Source: Candidatus Poribacteria bacterium (GTDB lineage: Bacteria; Poribacteria; WGA-4E; WGA-3G). Taken from it: a stretch of DNA of 64,000 nucleotides. The translations under genes were made by a program, and so were the position numbers. The stretch is taken from the NCBI GenBank assembly GCA_009839745.1, contig VXPE01000079.1, positions 44,762 through 108,761 on the forward strand, written 5' to 3'. This document shows, piece by piece, positions 12,137-26,106 of the stretch. How positions within the stretch are numbered: position 1 is the first letter of the stretch; each line of letters opens with the position of its first letter. The notes under the pieces were generated by a model that saw only the letters and a list, made by a program, of their open reading frames with translations, ran no database searches and was not told the DNA's origin.

Positions 12137-14371
12137 TTGAAAAAAATGGAACATCAGATTAATCTACCCATCACTGGGATGCACTGCGAAAACTGTACAA
12201 GCACCATCACACGACATCTGAAAAAGATGGATGGTGTCCTTGCCGCAGAAGTTAGCCTCGCCACTGAATATGCGGCGGTTACCTTTGATGCGTCCACGCT
12301 CAGCGAGGAAACCATCGTCGATAAGATCCGAGATCTCGGTTTTGACGTTGTCGATGAAGGTGAAGAAGACACTGCCCGCGCTGCGGAATTCCAACGGCAA
12401 AAGAGGCAATTCACTGTCGGGATCATCTTCACGCTTCCACTCTTTCTCCTCAGTATGGGTAGAGATATGAATCTGTTAGGTGCGTGGGCATCAGCAGGCT
12501 GGGTTAACTGGTTCATGTTTGGCTTAGCATTACCGGTGCAGGGTTACGTTGCTTGGGACTATTACATCGGTGGTTTTAAAGCCTTGCGCCACGGATCCGC
12601 CAATATGGATGTCCTCGTCGCTATGGGTTCATCCGTAGCGTTCCTCTATAGCCTCGTTGTAACGATTGCATTGGGGATGGACGCAGGGACACGCTTTGGA
12701 ACCCACGTCTATTTTGAGACAGCCGCGGTTATCATTACGTTGATTAAGTTAGGGAAACTGATCGAAGCCCGCGCCAAAGGTAAGATAAACGCAGCCCTCA
12801 AAAAGCTCCCTCAACTGTCCCCCCAAATCGCGTGTCGCCTAAAAAACGGCGAAGAACAACACATCCCTATTGAACAGGTCGGCATAGGCGATGTCCTTCT
12901 CGTACGTCCCGGCGAAAGTATTCCTGTTGATGGTGTGGTGCGGAGCGGCAAAAGTGCCATTGATGAAAGCGTCTTCACCGGAGAAAGCCTGCCCGTGGAT
13001 AAGGGACCCGGCGACCCTGTGACCGCAGCAACGATGAATCAGAGCGGAATGCTTACAATGGAAGCCACGCATATCGGCGCAGAAACGGCACTTGCGCGTC
13101 TTGTCCAATTGGTCCAAACAACCCAACAGAGTAAACCACCCATCCAACGCGCCGCCGATGCGGTCACAAACGTGTTTGTGCCTATTGTCTCTGGGGTCGC
13201 CATTGTGACGTTTCTTGTGTGGTGGTTCCTCCTCGGAGAAGGCTTCACCCCAGCAATGCTCCGTTTAGTTGCGATCCTTGTCACAGCCTGCCCATGTGCG
13301 TTGGGACTCGCCACCCCAACCGCCGTTATGATGGGGACGGGTATCGGCGCACAGCGCGGCATCCTCTTCCGAAACGGCGAAGCACTCGAACGCGCGGGAG
13401 ACTTAACCACAATTGTCCTCGACAAAACAGGCACCTTGACAGAAGGGAAACTCAGGCTTACCGATATTCTCACGGATACAGACGCATCAGAACTCCTACA
13501 ACTATGTGCCGCCGCGGAGCGTGGCAGCGAACATCCCATCGGAAGGGCAGTTGTCCAAGCAGCTAAGGAACGTGGACTGGATATCACTACACCGAGCCAG
13601 TTTGAAGCCGTCACTGGGCACGGTATCACCGCACGGGTCGGTGAAAACAGCGTCATCATCGGCAATTTATCCTTAATTCAACAGCACAGCATTTCGACAA
13701 GGAGATTTGAAGAAGACGCAGCGCGTCTGCAGACCGAGGCGAAAACCGTCCTATGGGTCGCCATTGATGAGCAGGTTGCTGGACTTCTGGCGGTGGCGGA
13801 CACCTTGAAATCGGAAGCGCACGCTGCAGTCTCGGAACTCTACGAACTTGGATGTACTGTGGTAATGATGACTGGGGACAACCGCGTTACGGCTGATGTG
13901 ATCGCCAAGGCGGCGCGGATTGGCGATGTCATGGCAGAACTCAAACCCGAAGATAAAGCAGCCGCCGTTAAGCAGTTACAGGCGGAAAATGGTGGACTCG
14001 TCGCGATGGTAGGTGACGGTATCAACGATACCCCCGCATTGGCACAAGCCGATATCGGTATCTCCCTCGGCACCGGCACCGATATTGCCAGGGAGACAGC
14101 AGACGTGACGCTCATGCACAGCGATTTGCGTGGACTCCCCGATGCGATTCGGCTCAGCCGTGTGACGATGCGCACCATTAAACAGAACCTGTTCTGGGCG
14201 TTCTTCTACAATGTGCTTCTCATTCCTGTTGCAGCGGGTGCACTGTATCCACTCTCTTTTGTGCCGATGATGTTTCGGGAGTTACACCCGATGCTTGCAG
14301 CGTTCGCGATGGCGTTTAGCAGTGTATCTGTTGTGCTAAACAGCCTGCGTCTGCAATGGAAAAAGACATGA
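12137..14371 (+). CDS. copA: Copper-translocating P1B-type ATPase
   Basis: N-terminal HMA domain with GMHCENC. CPC motif (ACPCALG), DKTGTLT phosphorylation site and [10 protein letters not shown] hinge. Confidence 0.9.
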
Positions 14372-17300
14372 CATCTAATATCACTTACGGCACAATAGTT
14401 GAAGGTCCTCTATGGTCCGAGCCTGTTCAAGTTTTGGCTTACCATCCACTTCCTGATGGCGGTTTCCATATTGTCGGCACCCTTGCAAATTCGCAAGCAC
14501 CTATCAACGAGGAGATCACGGCAATAGAGGCGGGTGAATTACAGATTGCTCGGTCAGAAGTGAATTTTACCGGCAATGCGCGCCATGCTTTTCTCAGTCT
14601 TGAAGCGAAACGGTACCGATATGCAGCCCTTTACAATCCTACCTTCGCTATTAGTATCTCCAAAGTAGATCCACTGCCGCATCAAATTGAAGCCGTGTGG
14701 CAGGTTCTTAAGCAGACGCGTATCCGTTTCCTCATTGCTGATGATCCCGGGGCTGGTAAAACAATTATGGCAGGCCTCATAGCGAAGGAACTCAAACTCC
14801 GAAACCAGGTCAAACGTATACTGATTGTTGCCCCTGGACACCTAATCACACAATGGACCGAGGAGATGAACATACGATTTGAGGAGAATTTCATACATGT
14901 CACACGTGCCCTCGTCAACACCCATCCATACGAAAACGTCTGGAGTCGAGAACAACAACTAATCACCTCTATAGATTTTGCCCGACAGGATGAAATCCGC
15001 GGAGCAATCGCTAATACCCATTTCGACCTGGTTATTGTTGATGAAGCACATAAAATGGCGGCCTACCAATATGGAGATAAAGTTGAAAAAACCAAAAGGT
15101 ATCAGTTAGGTGAATGCCTCTCTAACTGCACGACACATCTTCTTTTTCTTACAGCAACACCGCATAGAGGAGACTCTGAGAACTTCCGACTCTTCCTTGA
15201 CCTCCTTGAACCCGGTTTTTTTGCAGACCCGATCCAAATCCAGGAATCGATTAAGAAAAACGACAATCCACTTTTCATCCGACGTGTGAAGGAAGACCTC
15301 AAAGATTTTGATGGGAAAAAACTATTCCTACCACGCCACGTTCAGACAAAGCCATTTCGTCTCGGTGCGGAATCCGAAAGTGAAATGGAGCTCTATAACG
15401 AGCTTTCCGAGTACATTCGTGAGCAATATAACAGGTTTTCCGAAAATTCACAGAAGCGACACAATATCGCATTCGCACTTGTCATCTTGCAGCGGCGACT
15501 TGCATCCAGCACCTACGCTCTGTCCGTTTCCCTCAAACGCCGACAACAACGTCTTAAAGAATTGCTGCAGAATGCCACACTCCACACGGACACTATTCCC
15601 ACTGAGCAGCAGCGTGATGAAGTAGAAGATCTCGGTGAAACCGAACGTTGGGAGCGCGAAGAACAGTGGGAGGTCCTCTCTGTTGCCGAAAATAGAGATG
15701 AGTTAAAAAATGAAATTGAGACCCTTAAACACCTTGAGCGGAAAGCAGAACGTATTATTGAAAGTGAAAGTGAAATTAAATTACAAGAACTCAACAAAGC
15801 ACTTGATGAATTAAACGCACGATATCCAAATCAAAAGATTCTTATCTTTACTGAATACTTTGATACGTTAGATTACTTGGAGCAGAAAGTAAAAGAATGG
15901 GGATTTTTCGTATCGACTATTCATGGAAAGATGCCGCATGAAAAACGGGTGGAGGTCCAACACACCTTCGAGAATGAAACACAGATCCTTATTGCAACGG
16001 AAGCCGCAGGTGAAGGTATAAACCTCCAATTCTGCCATTTGATGATTAATTACGACCTACCGTGGAATCCGAATCGTCTTGAACAGCGGATGGGACGGAT
16101 TCATCGCTATGGTCAAAAAAAAGAGGTTCACGTTATCAACCTTGTAGCTTCCGATACGCGGGAAGGGGCTGTCTTCACCCGTCTCTTTGACAAACTTGAT
16201 ACCATTCGGAGCGAACTCGGAACTGATCGCGTCTATGATGTTATTGGAGAACTTTTTCCCCAACGAAATCTGGCACAACTTATGCTTGGAGCCGCAGCAA
16301 ACACACGTGACCATACTCAACTTCTTCAGGAAATTGACACCGCCCTTGGTTCGGAGCAGTTAGATTTTTTTAAAAATTTCAACGAAGATACACTTGTCTC
16401 ACCTTATATCAATCTGCCTCAGGTGAGCGAACTCCAGCAACGACTGCGTGAGCATGGGCTTATCCCGGAGTATACACGCGAGTTCTTTCGGAAAACCTTT
16501 GAAACCCTCAATAGCACACTTCGCTCGCGCAAAGATGAGTTTTTCAGAATTGATCGCATCCCAATTCAAATAACAAGAATTAGTCAGGATACCCAATTCA
16601 AGCAGATGTACCCATCGTTAACACGCAAAAACTATCCGAAAGTAACATTTGATAAAGCCCATACAGCCACGGATTCAACGGTTGAATTCATCTCTTTCGG
16701 TCACTCGCTCTTTGAGGCGGTTCTCCACTATGTAGAAAAGGAATACACCGAGGATTTAAAAACAGGTGCCTGTTTCTCAGATCCAGATGGCAGATTCAAC
16801 GGCATTATCGCTTTCTATGAAGGTGAAATCCGAGATGGAACAGATACAACTGCAGGGAAACAACTTTTTGCTTTCTACCTGCCTCAAGATTCGGAGTCCA
16901 TGGAACAGATTAATCCGACAGTACTCTGGGATTTCCAAGAAGCGTCCCCAACATTAGAACCGATACAGATACAGGAACTTGAAGATAAGATAAGCGGGCA
17001 AGTACGCCTGCGTTTAGATGAATATAAGAAGGAACTTACTGAAGAACGGAAAAGACAAGTAGACATCAAAAGGAAATACGGCATCACCTCATTAGAGAGG
17101 CTCATCTTGAATCTGGATAGTGAGTTACTGGACCTCGCCATTAAAAGCGACAATGGAGAAGATGTCAAACGGCTGGTCCAAAACAAGACAGAACAAAAGG
17201 ATCGCTATGAGGATGAAATGAAGAAGTTAGAGCAATCCTGTCAGCGAGAAGTTACACTTGTTAGAAAGCCACCTGTCTTTACTGGAGCCATTCGTATCCG

Positions 17301-17718
17301 CCCTGCTATGGAGGGCGATGAGACAGAAACACCAATACACAATAGGTTGGAAATTGAACAAATTGGCATGCAGCATGCCATCCACCATGAAGAAGCACAA
17401 GGCTGTGTTGTAGAGGATGTCTCAGCAGAGAGTCTCGGTTTCGATCTGCGATCAAAAACACAAGATGGTAAAATTCGATGCATTGAGGTTAAAGCTCGGT
17501 CCGACCGTGCCCCCGTGGTTCTCACCTCTAACGAATGGTTCAGAGCAAAACAACTCAAAAATGACTATTTTCTCTATGTTGTCCTCAACGCTGCAACACA
17601 TCCTGAATCTTATATTATCCAAAACCCTGCAAGCCAGATAAGTGCCGTTCGACAGATTACAGAGGTAAGGTATCAGGTGCCGCTTTCGGAGATAACAAAA
17701 CGTCGCGAACCAGTTTAG
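14356..17718 (+). CDS. SNF2-family helicase with C-terminal DUF3883 (restriction-endonuclease-like) domain; probable start at ATG 14368 overlapping the copA stop
   Basis: SNF2_N motifs (DDPGAGKT Walker [18 protein letters not shown]) and Helicase_C motifs ([21 protein letters not shown]). C-terminal D...IEVK...YFLYVVLNA matches the DUF3883/PD-(D/E)xK pattern. Confidence 0.85.
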
Positions 17719-17882
17719 TTTCCTGTAACTCCCGTAGGTTGGGTTGAACAGATCCCCAAGATCAACGCTGTCCCACAGAAAATACGAGAACGCTCAAATA
17801 CACTCAATAGACAGCAAAACCAGTGAAACCCAACACTTGAGTTTGGACAAAAACTTCACATACCCTCTTTGAAAAAATCGAG

Positions 17883-17911
17883 TTGATGCTTTAAATTTAA
17901 CATGTTATAAT
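17883..17911 (+). promoter_or_regulatory. Near-consensus sigma70 promoter TTGATG-N17-TATAAT upstream of the TIR-like cassette
   Basis: -35 box at 17883-17888, 17-nt spacer, -10 TATAAT at 17906-17911. About 190-nt leader containing hairpin TCCCCC-TGATAA-GGGGGA (17965-17982). Confidence 0.45.
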
Positions 17912-18108
17912 AATCTAACATGAGTTTGATAAATACTGAGAGGCAGACGCATTCCCTCTTAAAGTCCCCCTGATAAGGGGGATTTAGGGGGTTAACTCCG
18001 TAAAAATAGCGTCTTTTTTCTTAAATGTACCTCTGTCTTGGTTTCTCGGACTTTTTTCAAACTGGCGTTAACCTAACATTAATTACATGAATAACATGGA
18101 AACTGCTA

Positions 18109-18534
18109 TTGGAGATCAGTATTGTGAAAACCTATAACCTTTTTATTAGTCATTCTTGGACCTATAGCGACGCGTACGAAAAATTGATTAATTTGTTAAC
18201 GAAAAGGTCATACTTTCCCTACCGTGATTATTCTGTTCCCAAAGATGATCCTCTACATACAAGTGGTACCGACAAAGCCCTTTATGCAGCGATAAAGAAA
18301 AAAGTAAGTCCTTGTAGTGTCGTATTGATATTAGCAGGCGTTTACGCAAGTTATAGCAAATGGATCGACAAAGAAATCCAAATGGCACAAACCGAATTTT
18401 TGTATCCTAAACCCATTCTTGCCATTGAATCGTGGGGCAGTGAAAAAACCTCTGTTAAAGTAAAAAATGCGGCAGATAAAATCGTTGGCTGGAACACAGA
18501 AAGCATTGTTTCCGGTATTCGGGAGTTGGCATAA
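18109..18534 (+). CDS. TIR-like domain protein (ThsB-like / DUF1863, MTH538 TIR-like fold); start may be GTG at about 18124
   Basis: LFISHSWTYSDAYEKL followed by CSVVLILAGVYASYSKWIDKEIQMA mirrors the ThsB pattern (VFFSFHY...TSVTCVLIGSQTFNRRWVRYEI). Lies in an AT-rich region. Confidence 0.65.
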   Translation: MEISIVKTYNLFISHSWTYSDAYEKLINLLTKRSYFPYRDYSVPKDDPLHTSGTDKALYAAIKKKVSPCSVVLILAGVYASYSKWIDKEIQMAQTEFLYPKPILAIESWGSEKTSVKVKNAADKIVGWNTESIVSGIRELA

Positions 18535-18536
18535 AC

Positions 18537-18974
18537 ATGGATGAAAAGCAGGAATTGTTAGAAATCTACAAACTCCACACGCAACTCGCAGACAATGTTA
18601 GCAATCGTCGTGCAACCGCGAACCGTTTTTATATACTGGTTTTGCCTGGGTTAGCAGTGCTTTTTTCCGCTTTCCTACAGCATGAAAACGGAGTACCACT
18701 CGGATGGCTTATGATAGGTTTCGGACTATTTGGTATGCTTTTAGCGGCAGCGTGGTATATTGTCATTCGCTCTTATCGCCAACTCAATTCTGGTAAATTT
18801 AAAGCGTTGCACGAATTGGAAGAAAAACTGGCTTATCCATTTTTTAAACGCGAATGGGAATTGCTTACGTTGTGTTTACATTCCATCATCAAAATCGTCC
18901 GGAAGTCAGTGCCTATCAGAATTTACGTCTATAGATCAAATGGATATTGCAGAACTATGGAAGCCTTGCCATGA
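18537..18974 (+). CDS. Small 2-TM protein, SLATT-like predicted membrane effector
   Basis: 145 aa. N-terminal helix, two hydrophobic helices (FYILVLPGLAVLFSAFL; LGWLMIGFGLFGMLLAAAWYIVI), then an amphipathic helix. The stop is 3 nt after the TIR-like gene start coupling; an overlapping alternative frame (18760-19008) leaves the 3' end uncertain. Confidence 0.45.
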   Translation: MDEKQELLEIYKLHTQLADNVSNRRATANRFYILVLPGLAVLFSAFLQHENGVPLGWLMIGFGLFGMLLAAAWYIVIRSYRQLNSGKFKALHELEEKLAYPFFKREWELLTLCLHSIIKIVRKSVPIRIYVYRSNGYCRTMEALP

Positions 18975-19218
18975 CTGGATCCGGAGCCACAATGTAAACA
19001 CTACCTAGTGAAGGAAAAGATTTCAAGAGTTATTGGAAACTGTCTGTTGTTGAGACCTTTATCCCTGGAATCTTTTTTTTCGTTTTTTTAGCATTGATGA
19101 TTGTTGGAATTTATTTGGAGATAATTGGTGCCGGCGGGACCCAATAAAAATTATCTGTCTTAATCACTTGATGAAGATTCACCTGATAGATCTAATTCTG
19201 AAAAAGGAGACCTAAACA

Positions 19219-19446
19219 ATGGCTCATGCAGTAAGTTATATTCCCTTCCATCGCGTGAGGAATTGGAAAGTGGGCGATAGGATCATCGTAGATGGAATTC
19301 CTGGGCAAATTCGTGATATTGCTGAATTTGAGAATCCCTCAGGAACCGGAGAGACAATTGCCTCCATCGGTGTCGTGTACGACAATGAACCCGGTGTAAT
19401 TAGACTTGTTGAGTATGATCGACACCAACTCAAACTTGAACGCTAA
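19219..19446 (+). CDS. Hypothetical 75-aa soluble protein
   Basis: AAGGAG RBS 8 nt upstream. No recognisable motif; lies within the AT-rich cassette. Confidence 0.4.
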   Translation: MAHAVSYIPFHRVRNWKVGDRIIVDGIPGQIRDIAEFENPSGTGETIASIGVVYDNEPGVIRLVEYDRHQLKLER

Positions 19447-19535
19447 CTACTATAAAAATCTGGAAAATCCTCAGCAAAAACCATTCACCATGGTAGGTTA
19501 GACAACCTTTTCACGATAATACATAAGGAATTAAG

Positions 19536-20417
19536 ATGGAACAACAGAACCAAGCGATATTGACGAGAGAGTTGTCTCAGCCGATTGCCGCTTGTGTTTT
19601 TTCTAAGGATGATTTGAAAAATCTTTGTGAAGTATTGCAAGAGTGGTCATTTAAAGCATCAGATGAGGAAATAAAACATTACAGTCCACTCAATCGAACA
19701 CCAGAACAATTTAGTGCAGATATTACAGCACTGAAGTCTGGTTTTGAACTAAAGGTGACTGTACAAGGAATAGATGATGAAAGGATTTATGGAACGATCT
19801 CAGATGTATTTAACTCTCCTCGTTTTCCTGATCAGGTTAAAACACTTTACATCAATAGTGAATCAGATTTAAGAAATTTGTACAATTGGTTCCCCAGAAA
19901 TCGATTTGAACTGTTATTAGATTTCACAAAACCCGAACTTTTCAATTTATCACTATTATCCTCCAGAGCTACACCAAACGCCAGCAACATAAATGTTTCT
20001 GGATTAGATTCCACGTGGGTTAGTGGTGTATATGGTGAAATCGCAAATTTTATTGAGAAAAATAGAACACGTCGCGGTTTTTTTCATAGACATAGCATTT
20101 ATGATTTGTTTCTTCTTCTCATAGGACTCCCGTTCGCTTTTTGGATGGCATACAAATTATCAGGACCGATAAACAGCATATTTGGTGAATTTTCTGTATT
20201 CGTTCAAAATGGAGCCTATGTTTGTCTGTTCTTCTTGATGTTACACTTACTCAAAATACTGTTTGACTATGCCAGATGGATTTTTCCCATTGTTGAGTAC
20301 AAAAGTTCAGCAGATAATGCAGGCAAACATAGATACATCTTGGGGGGTTTAATAATAGCGATTTTCGGGAATTTCCTTTACGATCTATTTAAATTTGCTG
20401 CTGCTCTAATCCCATAA
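19536..20417 (+). CDS. Hypothetical protein: about 170-aa soluble N-domain plus C-terminal 3-4 TM helices
   Basis: AT-rich ORF. C-terminal hydrophobic helices (LFLLLIGLPFAFWMAY; AYVCLFFLMLHLLKILF; ILGGLIIAIFGNFLYDLF). No recognised family. Confidence 0.45.
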   Translation: MEQQNQAILTRELSQPIAACVFSKDDLKNLCEVLQEWSFKASDEEIKHYSPLNRTPEQFSADITALKSGFELKVTVQGIDDERIYGTISDVFNSPRFPDQVKTLYINSESDLRNLYNWFPRNRFELLLDFTKPELFNLSLLSSRATPNASNINVSGLDSTWVSGVYGEIANFIEKNRTRRGFFHRHSIYDLFLLLIGLPFAFWMAYKLSGPINSIFGEFSVFVQNGAYVCLFFLMLHLLKILFDYARWIFPIVEYKSSADNAGKHRYILGGLIIAIFGNFLYDLFKFAAALIP

Positions 20418-20460
20418 ACTTAAGCTCCTTTTCCTAAAAATTCCTTGTTAAACAATAAAT

Positions 20461-20489
20461 TTGACAATTAAGTCGCTATCTGGTATCAT
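20461..20489 (+). promoter_or_regulatory. Sigma70-like promoter TTGACA-N17-TATCAT upstream of the methyltransferase
   Basis: Direct reading: -35 at 20461-20466, -10 at 20484-20489, about 32 nt before the start at 20522. Confidence 0.45.
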
Positions 20490-20521
20490 ATCCGCAATTT
20501 TGTGAATGAATGGATTTATAG

Positions 20522-23201
20522 ATGAGTAAAAACAAACGTATCATTGAAGTCGCCTTCCCCGTCGAGGAGGTCAGTAAACAAGGTCGCGGCAAAAACCAAA
20601 TCTCTGGAATCCACAAATGGTGGGCACGCCGTCCCCTCGGGCCCTCGCGCGCTACGGCTTACGCTGCGCTTGTAGACAGCGATTTATCCCCCCCCTGCTT
20701 TACAAAAGATAAGTAATTCAGGCGTTGATGGAACGCTAACTCCACCTAAACACGATTTCATCGCCGAACTCGCCAAGTGGGAGAATGCCCTCAAACCTCT
20801 CTGGATTCAGCAAGCAAAAGAAGATATTCTGGAATCTCACAATAGTAAGGCTCCTAAAGTGCTGGATCCTTTTGGTGGACGCGGTTCTATTCCCTTAGAA
20901 GCACAACGGCTTGGCTGTGAAACTCATTCTTGTGACATCAACCCTGTTGCTATTCTAATTCAGAAATGTACGCTTGAATATCCACAAAAATATGGGCAAC
21001 GTCTCTATGATGATGTTAAGAAATGGGGCGAACATATCCTCGCCGAGGTGACCGAGGAGTTACACCCGTTCTATCCGAAAGACTCCGACGGCTCCGAGAT
21101 TTACGCCTACATCTGGGCCCGTACCCTTCCGTGTCAAAACCTAACCTGCAGTGCCGAAATTCCACTTATTAGCCAGTTTTGGTTGGCAAAAAAGACAAAA
21201 ATACAGAGGAAGAAAAAGATTACCCTCCTTCCTTATGAAGAAAAGGGACAGATTGCTTTTAATATAGTTGGGAACGGTTACAAATCAATGCCGGAAGATT
21301 TTAATCCCCAAAGTGGTACAGTCACTGATGCTAAGGTTACTTGTCCACTCTGTAAAAATACAATATCTGATACGGAGACACCCAGTCTCTTCCGAGACGG
21401 AGAAGCAGACGAAAGGTTGCTTGTTGTTGTTACCAAACACCAACAGAATAAAAATAAACAGTATCGTCTTGCAACGGAGGCGGATAAGGAGGTGTTCAGT
21501 GCCGCGAAGAACAAACTTTCTGAAAAAGAGAAGGAACTTGCTGTTAAATGGGGAGTTAGCCCCATACCAAATGAGGAGACCCCGAGCAATAAAGTATTGG
21601 GCTTCAGAATTAGTAATTACAATCTAAATACTTGGGGTGAACTCTTCAATGAGCGCCAACAACTCTCCCTCATCACCTTTACCGAGAAAATTAGAGAAGC
21701 ATACCCACAGATGCTTTCCCAAGAAAACTACAGTCCCGACTACGCCCAAGCAGTCTCTACTTATCTTGGGCTCTGGCTTAGTTCCATAGCGATGCGATCA
21801 GCAAACCTTTGTCGATGGGGAAATACGACTGAATCAGTTGTAGAAATGTTTGGTATGCAAACCGTGCCAATGGTCTGGGACTACGGAGAAGCAAATTCTG
21901 TAGATGTAGCGGTTAATCGGTTAAAGAGTTTGTTAAAGCCTATGACTCACTTGTGTCAGATGAACGACGAACCTGTTACTATACAATGCTCCTCGGTAAC
22001 GGATCTACCATATCCTGAGAATACCTTCGATGCTGTGCTAACGGATCCACCCTATTACGACAACATCCCCTACGCCTATCTCTCCGATTTTTTTTACGTA
22101 TGGCTAAGACGGAGTATTGGAACTCTCTATCCGAAACTCTTTGAAACGGATTTAACTCTCAAAGATGAAGAAATCGTGGCGTATAGTCACCATGCCGGTG
22201 GAAAACAGGGCGGAAAAGTGTTTTTTGAAACAGAACTCTCCAAAGCCTTCAAAGAGATGCATCGCGTGCTAAGACCCAACGGCATCGCTGTCATCGTTTA
22301 TGCCCATAAATCCACCGAAGGTTGGGAAACTCTGATTAACGCCCTATTGGACTCAGGACTTGTGGTGACAGGAGCGTGGCCAATTGATACAGAGATGAAA
22401 TCTCGTCAGCGATCATTGGACTCCGCAGCCCTTGCCTCCTCTATCTACATGGTAGCGCGCAAAAGAGAGCGGGAAGCGTTCGGGATCTATCAGGATGTAA
22501 AAAAAGAGTTAGATATCTATCTTGAACAGAAACTCTTTACCTTATGGGAATGGGGTTTCTCTGGTGCCGATCTGTTTATTGCGGCAATTGGTATTGGTAT
22601 TGAGGTATTTGGGAAATACGAAACAGTCATTGATGACGATGACAACCTCATTCGCGCAGATAGGATAATAGGGGACATCAGGGAAATATTGGAGCATTTC
22701 GATGGTGAACAAGCGGGCATAGCTGGTACACGGCTCACACGATTCTACCTCCGCTGGCGGCGGGAACACGGAGAAAAATCGGTAATTTTTAACGATGCGC
22801 GCGAACTCGCGCTCTCCCTCGGTATTGAACTCATAGAAGAGTGGGGGGAAGACAGCTTTATCCAGCAGGAGAAAACAAACGTGCGCGTGTTAGGTCCGCA
22901 AGAACGGGAACAGACTGACCTCTCTAAGCGTGAGGAGCTGATTGATGTTCTGCACCATGTGTTGCTGTTATGGCGTTCGGGGAACCGGGCTGAGATGGTC
23001 CAACGGCTTTCAAAAGATCGTATCGGTATAAACGAACTGATATGGAATGTCGCACAGCAAATCAGTGCAGCACTCCCAACAGATAGCCAAGAACGCCAAT
23101 GGCTTGAAGCATGGCTGGCAGACCGGGATACTATTCAGCGCGAAGTACAAAATCTTTTAGAAACGCCTGAAGAGGGAACATTGTTTTTAATCGCAGATTG
23201 A
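20522..23201 (+). pseudogene. DUF1156/COG1743 Zn-ribbon N6-adenine DNA methyltransferase, interrupted by a frameshift in a C8 homopolymer (20688-20695). One fewer C restores an 893-aa ORF.
   Basis: N-terminal piece (20522-20716) carries the DUF1156 signature IEVAFPVEEVS...HKWWARRPL. The downstream piece (GTG 20859) has motif I VLDPFGGRGSIPLEA, Zn-ribbon cysteines, and motif IV VLTDPPYYDNIPY. I translated the 140 nt between the pieces by hand in the downstream frame and it is open (…PPALQKISNSGVDGTLTPPKHDFIAELAKWENALKPLWIQQAKEDILESHNSKAPK). Confidence 0.8.
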
Positions 23202-23259: not shown

Positions 23260-26106
23260 ATGCTATGGAAGAATGGAAAAGGAGTACTCATGAGATTACC
23301 TCCCTTTGAAACCATCGCGAAACCGCACAACGATATATTGAAAGGCAGGTTTACGGCAGACACTTATGCTGCAAGACTTGGACGAGTCGTCAAAAATGAG
23401 GGCCCCCTTGAGTACAGAAACGCCCAGCGGTTTTTTGAGAGGACACACGAGACAAATGGATTGATGTCTCTCCTAAATGGTGTAGAAGGTCGTTTGAAAG
23501 GACGCAATCGGCAAAACCAAGATCCAATCGTCCAACTCCAGACCCCCTTCGGCGGCGGAAAAACGCACACGCTCATTTCGCTCTACCATAAGGCAAAAGA
23601 GTGGAACGCTCTCCCTGTAGTGATTGTCGGATCAGACATGGACCCCGGACAGGGAGATACCTTTTGGGGATCTATTGAGCAGCAACTCACGGGCGGTCTC
23701 CAACGTTTTAAAAAGCAAGTCGCCCCGGGCACAGAGAGTCTCTCCGAGATGTTCACTGATACGAAACAACCGGTACTCATCTTGATGGACGAAGTGCTGA
23801 ACTATCTTGAACGTGCCGCGGGGGTACCAATTCAGAAAAGCACATTAGCAGAACAGACTCTGGCATTTATGCTGTCCTTAACAGAAGCAGTTGCATCTAA
23901 CAATAATATCGCTTTTATTGTGACTCTACAAGAGAGTGAAGTCGCACCGATTGAAGATAAGTATTCACTCTTCACTGATCTCCTCACACGCATGAGACGC
24001 GTGGTCACCCCGGTTGAAGATGCCGAAATCGCCAGTATCATTCGGAAACGGCTTTTCGGAGAGGTTAACCTCAATGAAGTCAAGCGGATGGCTCGGGAAT
24101 TCGCAAAATACGCCAGACAGGAGAGTATTCTTCCGCCCGGCATTCAAGAATCCGAATATCGCAAACAATTCGTGGAAAGTTATCCGTTCCAGCCCGAAGT
24201 TATTGATGTCCTCTATCAGAGGTGGGGGAGTTTCCCGAACTTCCAGCGAACCCGGGGAGTGCTTAGGTTTCTCTCACGCGTTGTCCATCGCGTAAGCGGT
24301 AAAAACCGACCCTACATCACGCTCGCAGATTTTGACCTCACTGACAGCGACATCCGTGATGAACTCTTAGAGCACATTGATGCCCCCTACCGAGGGATCA
24401 TCGCCAGTGATATCACAGGACGCACTGCCGGTGCGAAAGCCGTTGACACAAAATTGGGAGGCACTTATCAACATTTGGCATTAGGCACGCGCACCGCGAC
24501 TGCTATCTTTCTCTATTCTTTTACAGGCGGCATGGAACGGGGAGCAAAATTGGATGAGATCAAACGGAGTGCAGCCGTTCTGGAACATCCCTCGGCTATC
24601 GTAGATACAGTAAAACACCTGCTCACTGAACACCTCTTTTACCTCCGCACTGAGAACGGGACTTCCTATTTTGACACCCAACCCAACTTAAGACGAATTG
24701 TGCAGACCCGAATGGACAATATTGACGATAAAGTTGTGGCGGGACGCAACAGTACACAACTTCGGAAGAGTTTCAAATCGAGTGGGTATCTTAAAACCTA
24801 CATTGCGCCAAAAGATGGAACGGATATTCGCGATACCGACGACTTAAAACTCATTGTGTTATCCAAACGAGATGACGCGTTTTGCCAAAACCTCGTAGAG
24901 AATCGCGGTGAAACACCGCGTATCTATCGCAACACCCTATTTTTCATTATTCCATCCGCCGGGGAAGCGAACCAATTAAAGACAGAAGTTAAATCAGTGA
25001 TCGCTCACGAGGAAATTAAGAAAGATAATTCCCTAAATTTATCAACTACTCAGAAAAAAGAGATTGATACTGCATTAAAACAGTCTGATAGTGCGTTAGA
25101 GAATGCAGTGCGTCAGGATTACCGCATTGTTCTGATACCAACAAAAGAGGGATTTCGTGAGGAAGATCTTGGGTTGCCCGCCGCTGGTATGAGTACCCCG
25201 TTTGATGAAACAGTCTATGAGATGCTCCGTGTGAAGTCTGAAATTTTAACAAGCATTGGACCTCGAAATATCTCAATCCGCTATCTGAAGGATAATGATA
25301 CTGTGTCAACCTCACAGTTGTTCCACTCCAGCCTTCGTTCCCCGGGTGAAACGCGTGTGCTCCGCGAGGCATGGATAAACGGCATCCGTCAGGGGGTTCA
25401 GGATGGACTCTTTGCACTTGGAGAGAAAGCAGGCGGCAAACTCGTTCCACGCTACTTTAAAGAACTCCCATTAGAAGTTACTTTGGACAACGACGAAGTC
25501 ATTATACAACCTAACCTCATTCGGGAAAGTATTACGTCAGAAGACATTTTACGGGACTATCTAATGGACAACAAGGCGGTCTCAACCTCTCAGCCGTTCC
25601 AATACAACCAGCAATCCACTAACGAGCCGCGATCGCTTCGCAGTACTTGGGAGATGGCAATCCGTGAAGGTATCCAAAAAGGCACATTTGGGATCGGGGA
25701 TAAACTGGGCGCTGAAGTCATTCCACGTGCTTTCAGGGAAGAAACTCCACCTATTACCTTGAACGATAACGAGGTTCTCATCCAGGCATCACTTTGCACG
25801 AGGCTGATTGCCCATCCACCACAACCAGACTTAAGACCAGCAGGAAATCAAAGTGGTCCGGAGACACCGCCGCCTGATCCAGGATCGACATCAGCAGCAA
25901 ATCTGCCTCGGAAATCAATTGGCATCCGATTTACATTACCGCAAGGGAAGGTAAGCAACGTGGCACAGCATTTCAACCAATTGCAAACCAACTTTCAAAA
26001 CATGCAAATTGAACTAAAAGCCTCCGATGGTGAAATCTCACAAGATGCTTACGAGGAACTTAAGGAGAATTTACGGGCATTAGGAATTGAGATTGAGGAA
26101 ATATAA
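23260..26106 (+). CDS. DUF499/COG1483-family P-loop ATPase (methyltransferase-associated)
   Basis: Walker A LQTPFGGGKTHTLISLYH. About 950 aa. C-terminal region holds an internal tandem duplication of an ~85-aa module (VSTSQLFHSS...DNDEVIIQ / VSTSQPFQYN...NDNEVLIQ). Confidence 0.75.
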   Translation: MLWKNGKGVLMRLPPFETIAKPHNDILKGRFTADTYAARLGRVVKNEGPLEYRNAQRFFERTHETNGLMSLLNGVEGRLKGRNRQNQDPIVQLQTPFGGGKTHTLISLYHKAKEWNALPVVIVGSDMDPGQGDTFWGSIEQQLTGGLQRFKKQVAPGTESLSEMFTDTKQPVLILMDEVLNYLERAAGVPIQKSTLAEQTLAFMLSLTEAVASNNNIAFIVTLQESEVAPIEDKYSLFTDLLTRMRRVVTPVEDAEIASIIRKRLFGEVNLNEVKRMAREFAKYARQESILPPGIQESEYRKQFVESYPFQPEVIDVLYQRWGSFPNFQRTRGVLRFLSRVVHRVSGKNRPYITLADFDLTDSDIRDELLEHIDAPYRGIIASDITGRTAGAKAVDTKLGGTYQHLALGTRTATAIFLYSFTGGMERGAKLDEIKRSAAVLEHPSAIVDTVKHLLTEHLFYLRTENGTSYFDTQPNLRRIVQTRMDNIDDKVVAGRNSTQLRKSFKSSGYLKTYIAPKDGTDIRDTDDLKLIVLSKRDDAFCQNLVENRGETPRIYRNTLFFIIPSAGEANQLKTEVKSVIAHEEIKKDNSLNLSTTQKKEIDTALKQSDSALENAVRQDYRIVLIPTKEGFREEDLGLPAAGMSTPFDETVYEMLRVKSEILTSIGPRNISIRYLKDNDTVSTSQLFHSSLRSPGETRVLREAWINGIRQGVQDGLFALGEKAGGKLVPRYFKELPLEVTLDNDEVIIQPNLIRESITSEDILRDYLMDNKAVSTSQPFQYNQQSTNEPRSLRSTWEMAIREGIQKGTFGIGDKLGAEVIPRAFREETPPITLNDNEVLIQASLCTRLIAHPPQPDLRPAGNQSGPETPPPDPGSTSAANLPRKSIGIRFTLPQGKVSNVAQHFNQLQTNFQNMQIELKASDGEISQDAYEELKENLRALGIEIEEI

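What the first reader, a model, noticed from the sequence alone, without database searches (positions are those of the whole stretch)
17880..20520. AT-rich cassette (ThsB-like TIR protein, 2-TM SLATT-like protein, two unknown proteins) with its own consensus promoter, wedged between the helicase and methyltransferase of a defence locus
Four consecutive + strand genes (18109-18534, 18537-18974, 19219-19446, 19536-20417) sit in a stretch that looks clearly AT-richer than the flanking helicase and methyltransferase genes. The stretch starts with a near-perfect TTGATG-N17-TATAAT promoter. The first product has the ThsB/DUF1863 TIR-like pattern (FISHSW...CSVVLILAGVYASYSKWIDKEI). The second product is a 145-aa two-TM protein; its stop is 3 nt from the first gene, and its architecture fits the SLATT class of predicted pore-forming effectors. 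The locus has no ThsA (SIR2/SLOG or Macro) partner and no recognisable nucleotide-sensor domain. It has instead a 75-aa soluble protein and a 293-aa protein with a soluble N-domain and 3-4 C-terminal TM helices. TIR-like plus SLATT pairings were predicted computationally (Burroughs et al. 2015). This four-gene arrangement, embedded inside another defence system, appears uncharacterised as far as I know. It is a plausible minimal Thoeris-like or abortive-infection module: the TIR-like protein would make a signal and the 2-TM or membrane protein would execute cell death.
Basis: partly seen in the sequence, partly recalled or inferred. Interest (0 to 1): 0.85.

Follow-up and report, generated by a model that had tools for sequence, protein, structure and literature searches.

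The report
Broken TIR-membrane defence pair inside Hma
The AT-rich stretch holds two separate small gene pairs nested inside an Hma anti-phage system of a probable sponge symbiont (Poribacteria): a Thoeris-like TIR enzyme with a three-helix membrane protein whose gene is broken here by a 138-bp mobile element, and an unrelated lineage-specific pair of unknown function.

Summary
The ORFs, the low GC (0.381, the lowest 2.8-kb stretch of the window) and the promoter are real. The interpretation needs three corrections.

1. "ORF2" is not a 145-aa 2-TM SLATT protein. It is the 5' part of a 156-aa, 3-TM protein of Pfam family 8xMP (PF24838). A 138-bp MITE with a TA duplication splits it; a 99%-identical sister genome has the empty site.

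2. The four genes are two modules. TIR+8xMP recurs across many phyla without ORF3/ORF4. ORF3+ORF4 (Poribacteria only) recurs next to RM and other defence genes without TIR/8xMP.

3. Both the pairing and the nesting are already described. Yirmiya et al. 2025 list this TIR clade with a "3TM" effector as a putative, untested Thoeris type. Payne et al. 2024 showed that 63% of Hma systems carry embedded genes.

The most likely mechanism is Thoeris-like. The TIR (64% identical to the N7-cADPR-producing type IV ThsB) makes an ADPR-derived signal that gates the oligomeric membrane protein. In this genome the module is probably dead.

One result is unexpected. In Poribacteria the TIR was lost at least five times, yet 8xMP stays intact under purifying selection (dN/dS about 0.1).

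The parts
14356..17718 (+). hmaA (SNF2 helicase with NOV_C/DUF3883-type C-terminus), upstream host gene of the embedded cassette
   Evidence: PADLOC HmaA E=5.6e-203; Pfam SNF2-rel_dom, Helicase_C, NOV_C
17883..17911 (+). Sigma-70-like promoter TTGATG-N17-TATAAT with TG extended -10
   Evidence: Conserved as TTGAyn-N17-TATAAT in orthologous loci L001, L002, L010 and L019, with a weaker TTGACA/TATCAT version in L024. In TIR-less loci L004, L005, L011, L015 and L026 the same promoter sits directly upstream of 8xMP.
17934..18096 (+). About 160-bp insertion in the 5' leader, shared only with L001. It holds a strongly folding repeat element (GGCAGACGC...GCGTC stem, inner hairpin GTCCCCCTGATAAGGGGGA) followed by TTTTTT.
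   Evidence: Absent from L002, L010, L019 and L024. The 33-nt core recurs in L019, L027 (twice) and L085-87; longer versions of 67-78 nt occur in L007 and L012. MFE is -42.9 kcal/mol. A terminator-like role is inferred, not shown.
Intact, with the SKWIDKE(84)I motif.
   Evidence: Pfam ThsB_TIR E=1.2e-14; PADLOC ThsB. 64% identical to E. coli 328 type IV ThsB and 42% to Pseudohongiella type VII ThsB. 4797 homologues, mostly 136 aa. phrog_6988 matches full length, E=1.5e-38.
18537..18867 (+). 5' part of the 8xMP (PF24838) membrane-protein gene: codons 1-110, N-terminal helix, TM1 and TM2
   Evidence: Pfam 8xMP profile positions 1-103; hydropathy TM 31-49 and 59-77
18868..19005 (.). 138-bp MITE with 17-nt imperfect terminal inverted repeats, flanked by a TA target-site duplication (18866-18867 and 19006-19007)
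   Evidence: Inverted repeat. Empty site GAATTGCTTA|GTGAAGG in L001 and L002. Other TA-flanked copies: L090 (95% and 93%) and L091 (87%); left end in L034.
19008..19147 (+). 3' part of the 8xMP gene (codons 111-156, including TM3), now out of frame and separated from the 5' part
   Evidence: The spliced protein matches 8xMP positions 1-134 of 136 at 117.5 bits. The junction REWELLSEGKDF is identical to P0001 and P0003.
19219..19446 (+). ORF3, a 75-aa soluble protein; first gene of a separate two-gene module
   Evidence: No Pfam, PADLOC, NCBIfam or PHROG hit. Only 5 credible relatives among 1.84 billion representatives. Lies directly upstream of ORF4 in 16 of 16 ORF4 loci.
19536..20417 (+). ORF4, 293 aa: alpha/beta N-domain of about 180 aa plus 3 C-terminal TM helices; second gene of the separate module
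20461..20489 (+). Promoter-like site TTGACA-N17-TATCAT (11 of 12, with TG) upstream of hmaB
   Evidence: pattern match only
20522..23201 (+). hmaB (DUF1156 methyltransferase), split by a +1 frameshift at a C8 run (20688-20695)
   Evidence: PADLOC HmaB on both pieces. Three-frame translation. The tract is C5 (in frame) in L019, C7 in L010, C9 in L020 and about C18 in L002 (all out of frame).
23260..26106 (+). hmaC (DUF499 ATPase)
   Evidence: PADLOC HmaC E=2.4e-108; Pfam DUF499

Best explanation
The stretch consists of two independent accessory modules embedded between hmaA and hmaB of an Hma defence system. The host is most likely a Candidatus Poribacteria (sponge symbiont) chromosome.

Module 1 (17883-19147) is a two-gene Thoeris-like operon driven by a conserved sigma-70-type promoter.
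- It encodes a 136-aa ThsB-type TIR protein. On phage infection this protein would convert NAD+ into an ADP-ribose-derived signal. Its clade points to a cyclic ADPR isomer such as N7-cADPR or canonical cADPR.
- It also encodes a translationally coupled 156-aa, 3-TM protein of the 8xMP family. The protein is inferred to be N-in with a positively charged cytoplasmic face. It would oligomerise in the membrane and, on binding the signal, breach or depolarise it, causing abortive infection or growth arrest.
- This is the 'TIR + 3TM' configuration that Yirmiya et al. 2025 list as a putative Thoeris type.
- In this genome a 138-bp TA-flanked MITE sits in codon 111 of the effector gene. It removes TM3 and 46 conserved residues, so module 1 is most likely inactive here. 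The TIR alone would be harmless.

Module 2 (19219-20417) is ORF3 (75 aa) plus ORF4 (N-domain plus 3 TM). It is a Poribacteria-restricted pair that also lies beside RM systems and other defence genes. It is a candidate defence module with an unknown trigger and a membrane-acting output.

Shown: domain identities, the MITE insertion, the modularity and the conservation of the promoter. Inferred: the signal chemistry, gating of 8xMP, the membrane-damage output and any defence phenotype.
For: TIR identity:
- Pfam ThsB_TIR E=1.2e-14 and PADLOC ThsB.
- 64% identical to EcTIR of the validated type IV Thoeris. EcTIR makes the caspase-activating signal.
- 42% identical to a validated type VII ThsB of the same cluster, 2734565194.
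- The SKWIDxEI motif is conserved.

Effector identity:
- The spliced protein matches the full 8xMP profile and has 3 TM helices.

Pairing:
- A TIR ends 2-5 nt before 8xMP in 25 of 44 loci from other phyla, plus 5 with remnants, and in 9 of 35 Poribacteria loci.
- A second, divergent ThsB_TIR subfamily pairs with 8xMP in L032 and L034.

Link to the literature:
- The Table S1 entry ga0242689_13051122, labelled '3TM', is identical to the TIR upstream of 8xMP in L050.
- About 100 '3TM' entries are listed, and none is in the table of tested systems.

MITE:
- Terminal inverted repeats, TA duplication, an empty site in a 99%-identical orthologue, and further copies elsewhere.

Modularity:
- ORF3+ORF4 occur without TIR, 8xMP or Hma in L083-L087 and L089.
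- ORF3 precedes ORF4 in 16 of 16 loci.

Embedding:
- The same nested layout occurs in L001, L002, L010, L014, L019, L020, L024 and L082.
- 62.7% of 1,485 Hma systems carry embedded genes, many of them defence systems.
Against: - No experiment exists for any TIR+3TM/8xMP system, and none was in the tested set.
- 8xMP has no recognisable ligand-binding domain. The monomer model is poor (pLDDT 62), so neither a signal pocket nor the oligomeric state was tested here.
- In Poribacteria the adjacent TIR was lost or broken in most loci, in at least five independent junction classes. Yet 8xMP stays intact and under purifying selection after the loss: dS 0.14-0.6, dN/dS 0.02-0.23. No TIR lies within 10 kb. 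A strictly paired sensor and effector would not be expected to behave this way.
- The module 2 function rests on neighbourhood only.
Confidence: 0.6

Rival explanations
1. 8xMP is not simply a TIR-gated effector. It works on its own, as an autonomous sensor-effector or a membrane protein with a non-defence role, or it answers to signals made by TIRs encoded elsewhere. The adjacent TIR would then be an optional add-on.
For: - 8xMP is intact in 37 of 39 Poribacteria loci, while the adjacent TIR is absent in 22, a remnant in 4 and carries a premature stop in 1.
- Five junction classes show independent TIR losses. In class B the conserved promoter now drives 8xMP directly.
- dN/dS within classes is about 0.1, the same as for paired copies.
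- No TIR-like ORF lies within 10 kb.
- 14 of 44 loci from other phyla also lack an adjacent TIR.
Against: - Across phyla the tight TIR-8xMP juxtaposition (2-5 nt) is the commonest arrangement.
- 8xMP pairs with two different ThsB subfamilies, which argues for a functional link.
- Thoeris loci are known to share signals between systems (ThsH and ThsI in one operon). A TIR acting in trans would therefore fit the Thoeris model rather than contradict it.
- Whole genomes could not be searched for other TIRs.
Confidence: 0.3
2. One reading: one four-gene Thoeris-like or abortive-infection system, in which the TIR makes a signal and the 2-TM SLATT protein and/or ORF4 executes death.
For: - The four genes are co-oriented and lie in the same order in the window, L001, L002, L019, L024 and L082.
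- No strong terminator lies between them.
Against: - ORF3+ORF4 occur without TIR or 8xMP in L083-L087 and L089.
- TIR+8xMP occur without ORF3/ORF4 in all 44 loci from other phyla.
- L010 lacks ORF4. In L014 the two pairs are separated by 4 kb.
- ORF2 is not a 2-TM protein.
Confidence: 0.07
3. It is a member of type VII Thoeris (ThsB plus SLATT-domain ThsH, canonical cADPR signal). On this view 8xMP is a divergent SLATT protein.
For: - The TIR falls in cluster 2734565194, which contains validated type VII and type VIII TIRs.
- The 8xMP core (N-terminal helix, TM hairpin, cytoplasmic helices) resembles the SLATT layout. This comparison rests on my own knowledge of Burroughs et al. 2015.
Against: - No SLATT or DUF4231 Pfam match at E<=1, and no PADLOC effector model matches.
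- Precomputed Pfam lists show only PF24838.
- Yirmiya et al. keep '3TM' apart from 'SLATT - Type VII'.
- 8xMP has an extra third TM helix.
- The nearest validated TIR is type IV (64%), not type VII (42%).
Confidence: 0.1
4. It is not a defence function at all. The region would be decaying mobile DNA at a variable locus between copA and the GT9 gene, and the gene pairs would have no current role.
For: - Many lesions: a MITE in 8xMP, a frameshift in hmaB, truncated hma genes in L001, and TIR deletions in many genomes.
- Low GC.
Against: - Strong purifying selection on 8xMP.
- ORF4 is conserved at 56-99% identity over its full length in 152 proteins.
- The promoter is conserved.
- Neighbours are defence-type genes wherever the modules occur.
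Confidence: 0.05

Closest known systems
Putative 'TIR + 3TM' Thoeris configuration (Yirmiya et al., bioRxiv 10.64898/2025.12.03.692087, Table S1 / Fig. 1C)
   Same: - Same TIR sequence clusters (2734565194 and 2556961318).
- One listed TIR is identical to the TIR next to 8xMP in L050.
- Two-gene operon with a small 3-TM partner.
   Different: - That paper only predicts the type. It is absent from the table of 30 tested operons.
- Here the effector gene is interrupted by a MITE, and the pair is nested inside Hma together with a second module.
Type IV Thoeris (ThsB + caspase-like ThsE; signal N7-cADPR; Rousset et al., bioRxiv 10.1101/2024.10.24.620036)
   Same: - The TIR is 64% identical to EcTIR over the whole domain.
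- Both TIRs are short, single-domain proteins.
   Different: The effector is a 3-TM membrane protein, not a caspase-like protease. No such protease gene lies in the locus.
Type VII Thoeris (ThsB + SLATT ThsH; canonical cADPR) and type V Thoeris (ThsB + DUF2270 3-TM ThsF; 3'cADPR)
   Same: - A small TIR plus a small multi-TM protein predicted to form a ring or filament with charged pockets between protomers.
- The output is probably membrane damage.
   Different: - 8xMP matches neither SLATT nor DUF2270 models.
- The signal molecule is unknown.
Hma-embedded defence cassettes ('guilt-by-embedding', HEC-01 to HEC-09; Payne et al., bioRxiv 10.1101/2024.01.29.577857)
   Same: Extra genes nested between hma genes. 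Embedded cassettes are often independent defence systems that also occur outside Hma. Both modules here fit that pattern.
   Different: - Neither TIR+8xMP nor ORF3+ORF4 is among HEC-01 to HEC-09.
- 8xMP, ORF3 and ORF4 match no PADLOC v2 model.
- Two unrelated modules are embedded side by side.
Stowaway-like MITEs of the IS630/Tc1-mariner type
   Same: 138 bp, terminal inverted repeats, TA target duplication, no ORF, several copies.
   Different: - No autonomous parent element was identified.
- An IS630-type DDE_3 transposase exists in a related genome (L089), but its ends do not match the MITE.

Membership tests
Thoeris (generic: ThsB TIR + signal-activated effector) | A ThsB-type TIR-domain protein | tested here: met
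   Pfam PF08937 E=1.2e-14; ten PADLOC ThsB models, best E=1.3e-10
Thoeris (generic: ThsB TIR + signal-activated effector) | Catalytic glutamate of the TIR NADase/cyclase site | tested here: inconclusive
   The motif SKWIDKE84I aligns with SKWIDAEI of EcTIR and lies in a conserved block. The catalytic residue was mapped by motif only. PsTIR E79Q is the tested mutant.
Thoeris (generic: ThsB TIR + signal-activated effector) | Effector gene adjacent, in the same operon, and conserved as a pair | tested here: met
   2-nt spacer here. A full-length TIR lies directly upstream of 8xMP in 34 of 79 species-representative loci, or 42 of 79 counting remnants. However, the pairing was lost repeatedly in Poribacteria.
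Thoeris (generic: ThsB TIR + signal-activated effector) | Phage-triggered production of an ADPR-derived signal that activates the effector; a defence phenotype | not testable with these tools
   Needs cloning, plaque assays and LC-MS
Type I / type II Thoeris | ThsA effector with SIR2-SLOG or Macro-TM domains | tested here: not met
   None of the eight proteins scanned (ORF1-4 and the Hma proteins, 14.3-26.1 kb) has such a domain
Type VII Thoeris / SLATT effectors | Effector carries a SLATT (or DUF4231) domain | tested here: not met
   No SLATT or DUF4231 hit at E<=1 for the full-length protein. Only PF24838 appears in precomputed lists. The source paper labels it '3TM', not 'SLATT'. Remote homology by profile-profile or fold comparison could not be tested: the afdb50 library was unavailable and the model quality was low.
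Pfam 8xMP (PF24838, octameric membrane protein family) | Full-length match above the gathering score | tested here: met
   117.5 bits against a cut-off of 30, profile positions 1-134 of 136, after removal of the MITE
Pfam 8xMP (PF24838, octameric membrane protein family) | Octameric assembly | not testable with these tools
   Only monomer prediction was available (pLDDT 62). No solved relative was found by sequence or Foldseek.
Hma defence system | HmaA helicase, HmaB DUF1156 methylase and HmaC DUF499 ATPase in one locus | tested here: met
   PADLOC E=5.6e-203, 1.7e-104 and 2.4e-108. hmaB is frameshifted at a C8 run.
Hma-embedded cassette (Payne et al. 2024) | Non-hma genes located between hma genes; the cassette also occurs outside Hma | tested here: met
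   Both modules lie between hmaA and hmaB here and in 8 related loci. Both also occur outside Hma.
MITE (TA-targeting, IS630/mariner-like) | Short non-coding element, terminal inverted repeats, TA duplication, empty site, multiple copies | tested here: met

The most novel reading that the evidence does not exclude
Two readings are not excluded.

(a) In Poribacteria the 8xMP membrane protein has become independent of its cognate TIR. It would act either as a shared effector listening to TIR signals made elsewhere in the genome or as an autonomous membrane sensor-effector. This would explain why the 'sensor' gene is lost repeatedly while the 'executioner' is kept under selection, which is the reverse of what a suicide module predicts.

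(b) ORF3+ORF4 is a new, lineage-restricted anti-phage system: a small soluble partner plus a protein with an alpha/beta N-domain and a 3-TM C-terminus. It has no relatives outside Poribacteria.
Probability: 0.3. Interest if true: 0.6.

Novelty: new member of a known kind. Interest (0 to 1): 0.4.

Why it matters
The locus gives a natural, well-resolved example of the untested 'TIR + 3TM' Thoeris class, with many orthologues from sponge symbionts to choose for cloning.

It also yields two testable questions.
- Can a Thoeris-type membrane effector be maintained without its own TIR? If so, it may read signals from other systems or act alone.
- Does Hma embedding point to a new Poribacteria-specific defence pair (ORF3+ORF4)?

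It is also a caution for annotation. In this genome the effector gene is split by a MITE and the host methylase gene is out of frame, so a domain-level reading overstates what is functional.

Tried and rejected
- An exact-sequence look-up of the window TIR found no record.
- NCBIfam, PADLOC and PHROGs gave nothing for 8xMP, ORF3 or ORF4.
- PDB sequence searches for 8xMP, with a single sequence and with a profile, gave nothing credible.
- The 8xMP AF2 monomer was too poor to use (pLDDT 62). Its Foldseek PDB hits were all E>1.
- The AFDB fold library was unavailable. The SLATT question therefore could not be settled by structure.
- The distant hits of ORF3 to large TPR or tail-fibre-like proteins look spurious.
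- Literature searches for '8xMP' and 'octameric membrane protein' found nothing relevant.
- A viral-contig scan found no 8xMP relatives.
- Rfam found nothing in the region.
- The idea of a recent low-GC insertion was rejected. The nested layout is shared by Poribacteria genomes whose orthologous proteins are only 51-88% identical to the window's, so it is old.


Full report
**1. The observation**

The four + strand ORFs exist at the stated coordinates. The stretch 17719-20521 has GC 0.381. The window mean is 0.486 (sd 0.03), and this is the lowest of all 612 sliding windows of the same length. The flanking hma genes (0.45-0.48) are themselves lower in GC than the housekeeping copA gene upstream (0.53).

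TTGATG-N17-TATAAT with an upstream TG lies at 17883-17911. The number of promoter-like sites in this AT-rich region is not above chance (6 against 8.6 +/- 2.4). The support comes instead from conservation. The same TTGAyn-N17-TATAAT box lies about 45 nt upstream of the TIR start in orthologous loci L001, L002, L010 and L019, and in weaker form in L024.

The flanks are a complete Hma system: HmaA, HmaB and HmaC with PADLOC E-values of 6e-203, 2e-104 and 2e-108.

**2. ORF1**

ORF1 is a ThsB-type TIR protein (Pfam PF08937 E=1.2e-14; PADLOC ThsB). Its thousands of homologues are almost all 136 aa, and a conserved GGAG lies 9 nt before GTG 18124. The true start is therefore probably 18124 rather than TTG 18109. 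The gene is intact.

**3. ORF2 is a broken gene**

The 145-aa ORF matches only positions 1-103 of the 136-position Pfam model 8xMP (PF24838, 'octameric membrane protein family'). A 17-nt inverted repeat (18866-18882 / 18991-19007) brackets a 138-bp element flanked by TA on both sides.

Deleting 18868-19007 (140 bp) restores the frame into 19008-19147. The result is a 156-aa protein that matches the model over positions 1-134 of 136, and the score rises from 94.6 to 117.5 bits.

An intact orthologue, 99% identical (P0001), lies in a syntenic locus (L001). The empty site there reads GAATTGCTTA|GTGAAGG, exactly what TA duplication predicts.

Other copies of the element, each flanked by TA, occur in two metagenome contigs (L090 at 95% and 93%; L091 at 87%). 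A left end occurs in another Poribacteria MAG, L034. This is a genuine MITE family.

The intact protein has three hydrophobic helices (31-49, 59-77, 132-150). The window's truncated product lacks the third helix and 46 conserved residues. In this genome the gene is most likely non-functional.

**4. Is it SLATT?**

No SLATT or DUF4231 model matches the full-length protein at E<=1, and no PADLOC effector model matches. The precomputed Pfam lists, which keep overlapping related families, show PF24838 only.

There is no solved relative by sequence. The monomer model was too poor for fold comparison (pLDDT 62), and the AlphaFold database library was unavailable.

SLATT membership was therefore tested at the sequence level and not met. 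Remote homology remains open.

**5. Where the pair occurs**

A scan of one genome per species returned 79 loci. Almost all are from lineages that I know as sponge-associated: Candidatus Poribacteria, Latescibacterota, Bryobacterales, Caldilineaceae, 'Poriferihabitaceae' and Synechococcus bins from sponges. The environmental reading is my own knowledge.

The window shares synteny (copA ... glycosyltransferase 9) and 73-99% identity with the Poribacteria loci. Its ORF4 has named relatives only in Poribacteria. It is therefore probably a Poribacteria chromosome.

Outside Poribacteria a full-length TIR ends 2-5 nt before 8xMP in 25 of 44 loci, and 5 more have remnants. None of these 44 loci has ORF3, ORF4, HmaB or HmaC. 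In L032 and L034, 8xMP is preceded by a different ThsB_TIR subfamily (E=1.5e-9). TIR+8xMP is therefore a mobile two-gene unit with interchangeable TIRs.

**6. ORF3 and ORF4 form a separate unit**

ORF4 has only 152 homologues among 5.8 billion proteins. All are 56-99% identical and have no Pfam domain, and the named ones are all Poribacteria. ORF3 has five credible relatives among 1.84 billion representatives. ORF3 lies directly upstream of ORF4 in 16 of 16 loci.

The pair occurs without TIR, 8xMP or Hma in these settings:
- next to an EcoRV-type RM system (L083);
- next to an EcoO109I-type RM system and an ISL3 transposase (L084);
- in an island with a PLD-SNF2 helicase, an MmeI-like methylase and an ABC-type ATPase (L085-87);
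- next to an IS630-type transposase (L089).

**7. What is already known**

(a) Payne et al. (bioRxiv 10.1101/2024.01.29.577857) showed that 931 of 1,485 Hma systems (62.7%) carry embedded genes. They found that 22.8% of those genes belong to known defence systems, and that 7 of 9 tested embedded candidates protect against phages. The 'wedged between helicase and methyltransferase' layout is thus the typical Hma-embedding pattern. It supports a defence role for both modules by context.

(b) Yirmiya et al. (bioRxiv 10.64898/2025.12.03.692087) catalogued 29 putative Thoeris types and validated types V-XI. Their Table S1 lists about 100 TIRs of clusters 2734565194 and 2556961318 with the partner label '3TM'. 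One of them (ga0242689_13051122) is identical to the TIR that precedes 8xMP in L050. '3TM' is therefore the 8xMP family.

The 3TM type is not among the 30 operons they tested. The same TIR cluster contains type IV (caspase, N7-cADPR), type VII (SLATT, cADPR) and type VIII (CMP hydrolase, cADPR) TIRs. The window TIR is 64% identical to the type IV EcTIR and 42% to a type VII TIR. EcTIR makes the caspase-activating signal.

**8. Mechanism**

The best-supported model for module 1 is Thoeris-like. An infection-activated TIR makes an ADPR-derived signal, probably a cADPR isomer given the clade. The signal binds the cytoplasmic face of an oligomeric 3-TM protein and triggers membrane damage.

Conserved basic residues cluster in the two segments predicted to be cytoplasmic (R25, R30, R78, R81, K87, R105). 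This is consistent with a nucleotide pocket between protomers, like the pockets modelled for ThsF and ThsH. All of this is inference.

In this genome the MITE most likely disables the effector. A shared 160-bp repeat element with a strong hairpin and a T-run lies between the promoter and the TIR start. It may further reduce expression.

**9. An unexpected pattern**

Among 39 Poribacteria loci, 8xMP is broken only twice: by the MITE in the window and by a split in L088. The adjacent TIR, in contrast, is absent in 22 loci, a C-terminal remnant in 4, and carries a premature stop in L002.

The upstream junctions fall into at least five classes.
- Class A: copA is fused in frame to the last 14 or so TIR codons.
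- Class B: the conserved promoter is joined directly to 8xMP.
- Classes C, D and E: three further junction types.

Within each class, all divergence is later than the TIR loss. There dS is 0.14-0.6 and dN/dS is 0.02-0.23, the same as for TIR-paired copies (median 0.086). No TIR-like ORF lies within 10 kb of 20 such loci.

So 8xMP remains useful without its neighbour. Either it reads signals from TIRs elsewhere, or it has a TIR-independent role. This lowers my confidence in the simple paired model to about 0.6 and is the most interesting open point.

**10. Verdict**

It is wrong on SLATT, on the 2-TM architecture, on the four-gene unit and on intactness.

The TIR+3TM pairing and Hma embedding are both already described, although the pairing is untested experimentally. 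I therefore file this as a new member of a known kind, with moderate interest. That interest comes from the solo-effector pattern, the candidate ORF3+ORF4 module and the variable poly-C tract in hmaB.

Noticed in passing
window 20688-20695 (hmaB); L002, L010, L019, L020: hmaB is out of frame at a C8 run between the DUF1156 motif and the methylase domain. The same tract is C5 (in frame) in L019, and C7, C9 and about C18 (all out of frame) in L010, L020 and L002. This looks like a phase-variable contingency tract controlling the Hma methylase, or else recurrent homopolymer assembly error.
   Followed up: partly
window 17934-18096; L001 9406-9567; core in L007, L012, L019, L027, L085-87: A repeat element of about 160 bp is inserted between the conserved promoter and the TIR start. 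Its 33-nt core, AAAGTCCCCCTGATAAGGGGGATTTAGGGGGTT, is dispersed in other Poribacteria loci. It folds strongly (-42.9 kcal/mol) and is followed by TTTTTT, so it may act as a terminator or attenuator.
   Followed up: partly
L003-L036, L082, L088 (Poribacteria loci): The TIR gene was lost independently many times (five junction classes), while 8xMP stays intact with dN/dS about 0.1. In class B (L004, L005, L011, L015, L026) the conserved promoter now drives 8xMP directly.
   Followed up: yes
L090 3389-3529 and 5134-5242; L091 5020-5158; L034 6362-6421: Further copies of the 138-bp TA-flanked MITE in metagenome contigs MKWU01008005.1 and LXNJ01005135.1, and in a Poribacteria MAG. No autonomous parent was identified.
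   Followed up: partly
L032 7400-7786; L034 9447-9863: In these loci 8xMP is preceded by a different ThsB_TIR subfamily (128-138 aa, Pfam E=1.5e-9). This shows partner swapping between TIR types.
   Followed up: partly
L020-L081 record titles: Close relatives of the pair (48-80% identity) occur across at least ten phyla, almost all in MAGs of sponge-associated lineages. This suggests horizontal spread within sponge microbiomes. The scan used two peptide patterns, so it is biased towards close relatives.
   Followed up: no
window 14356-14371: The hmaA start overlaps the copA stop by 16 nt. In many relatives 8xMP instead follows copA within 5 nt. The copA 3' end is therefore a recurrent junction of this variable locus.
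   Followed up: no
window 18124-18534: The TIR matches PHROG family phrog_6988 (unknown function) over its full length, E=1.5e-38. This TIR type is therefore also carried by phages or prophages, although no 8xMP relative was found in the viral contig collection.
   Followed up: no
L088 5894-6371: A second 8xMP pseudogene, split into two 89-aa pieces, followed by a Uma2-family gene inserted before ORF3-ORF4.
   Followed up: no
[not shown]
   Followed up: no
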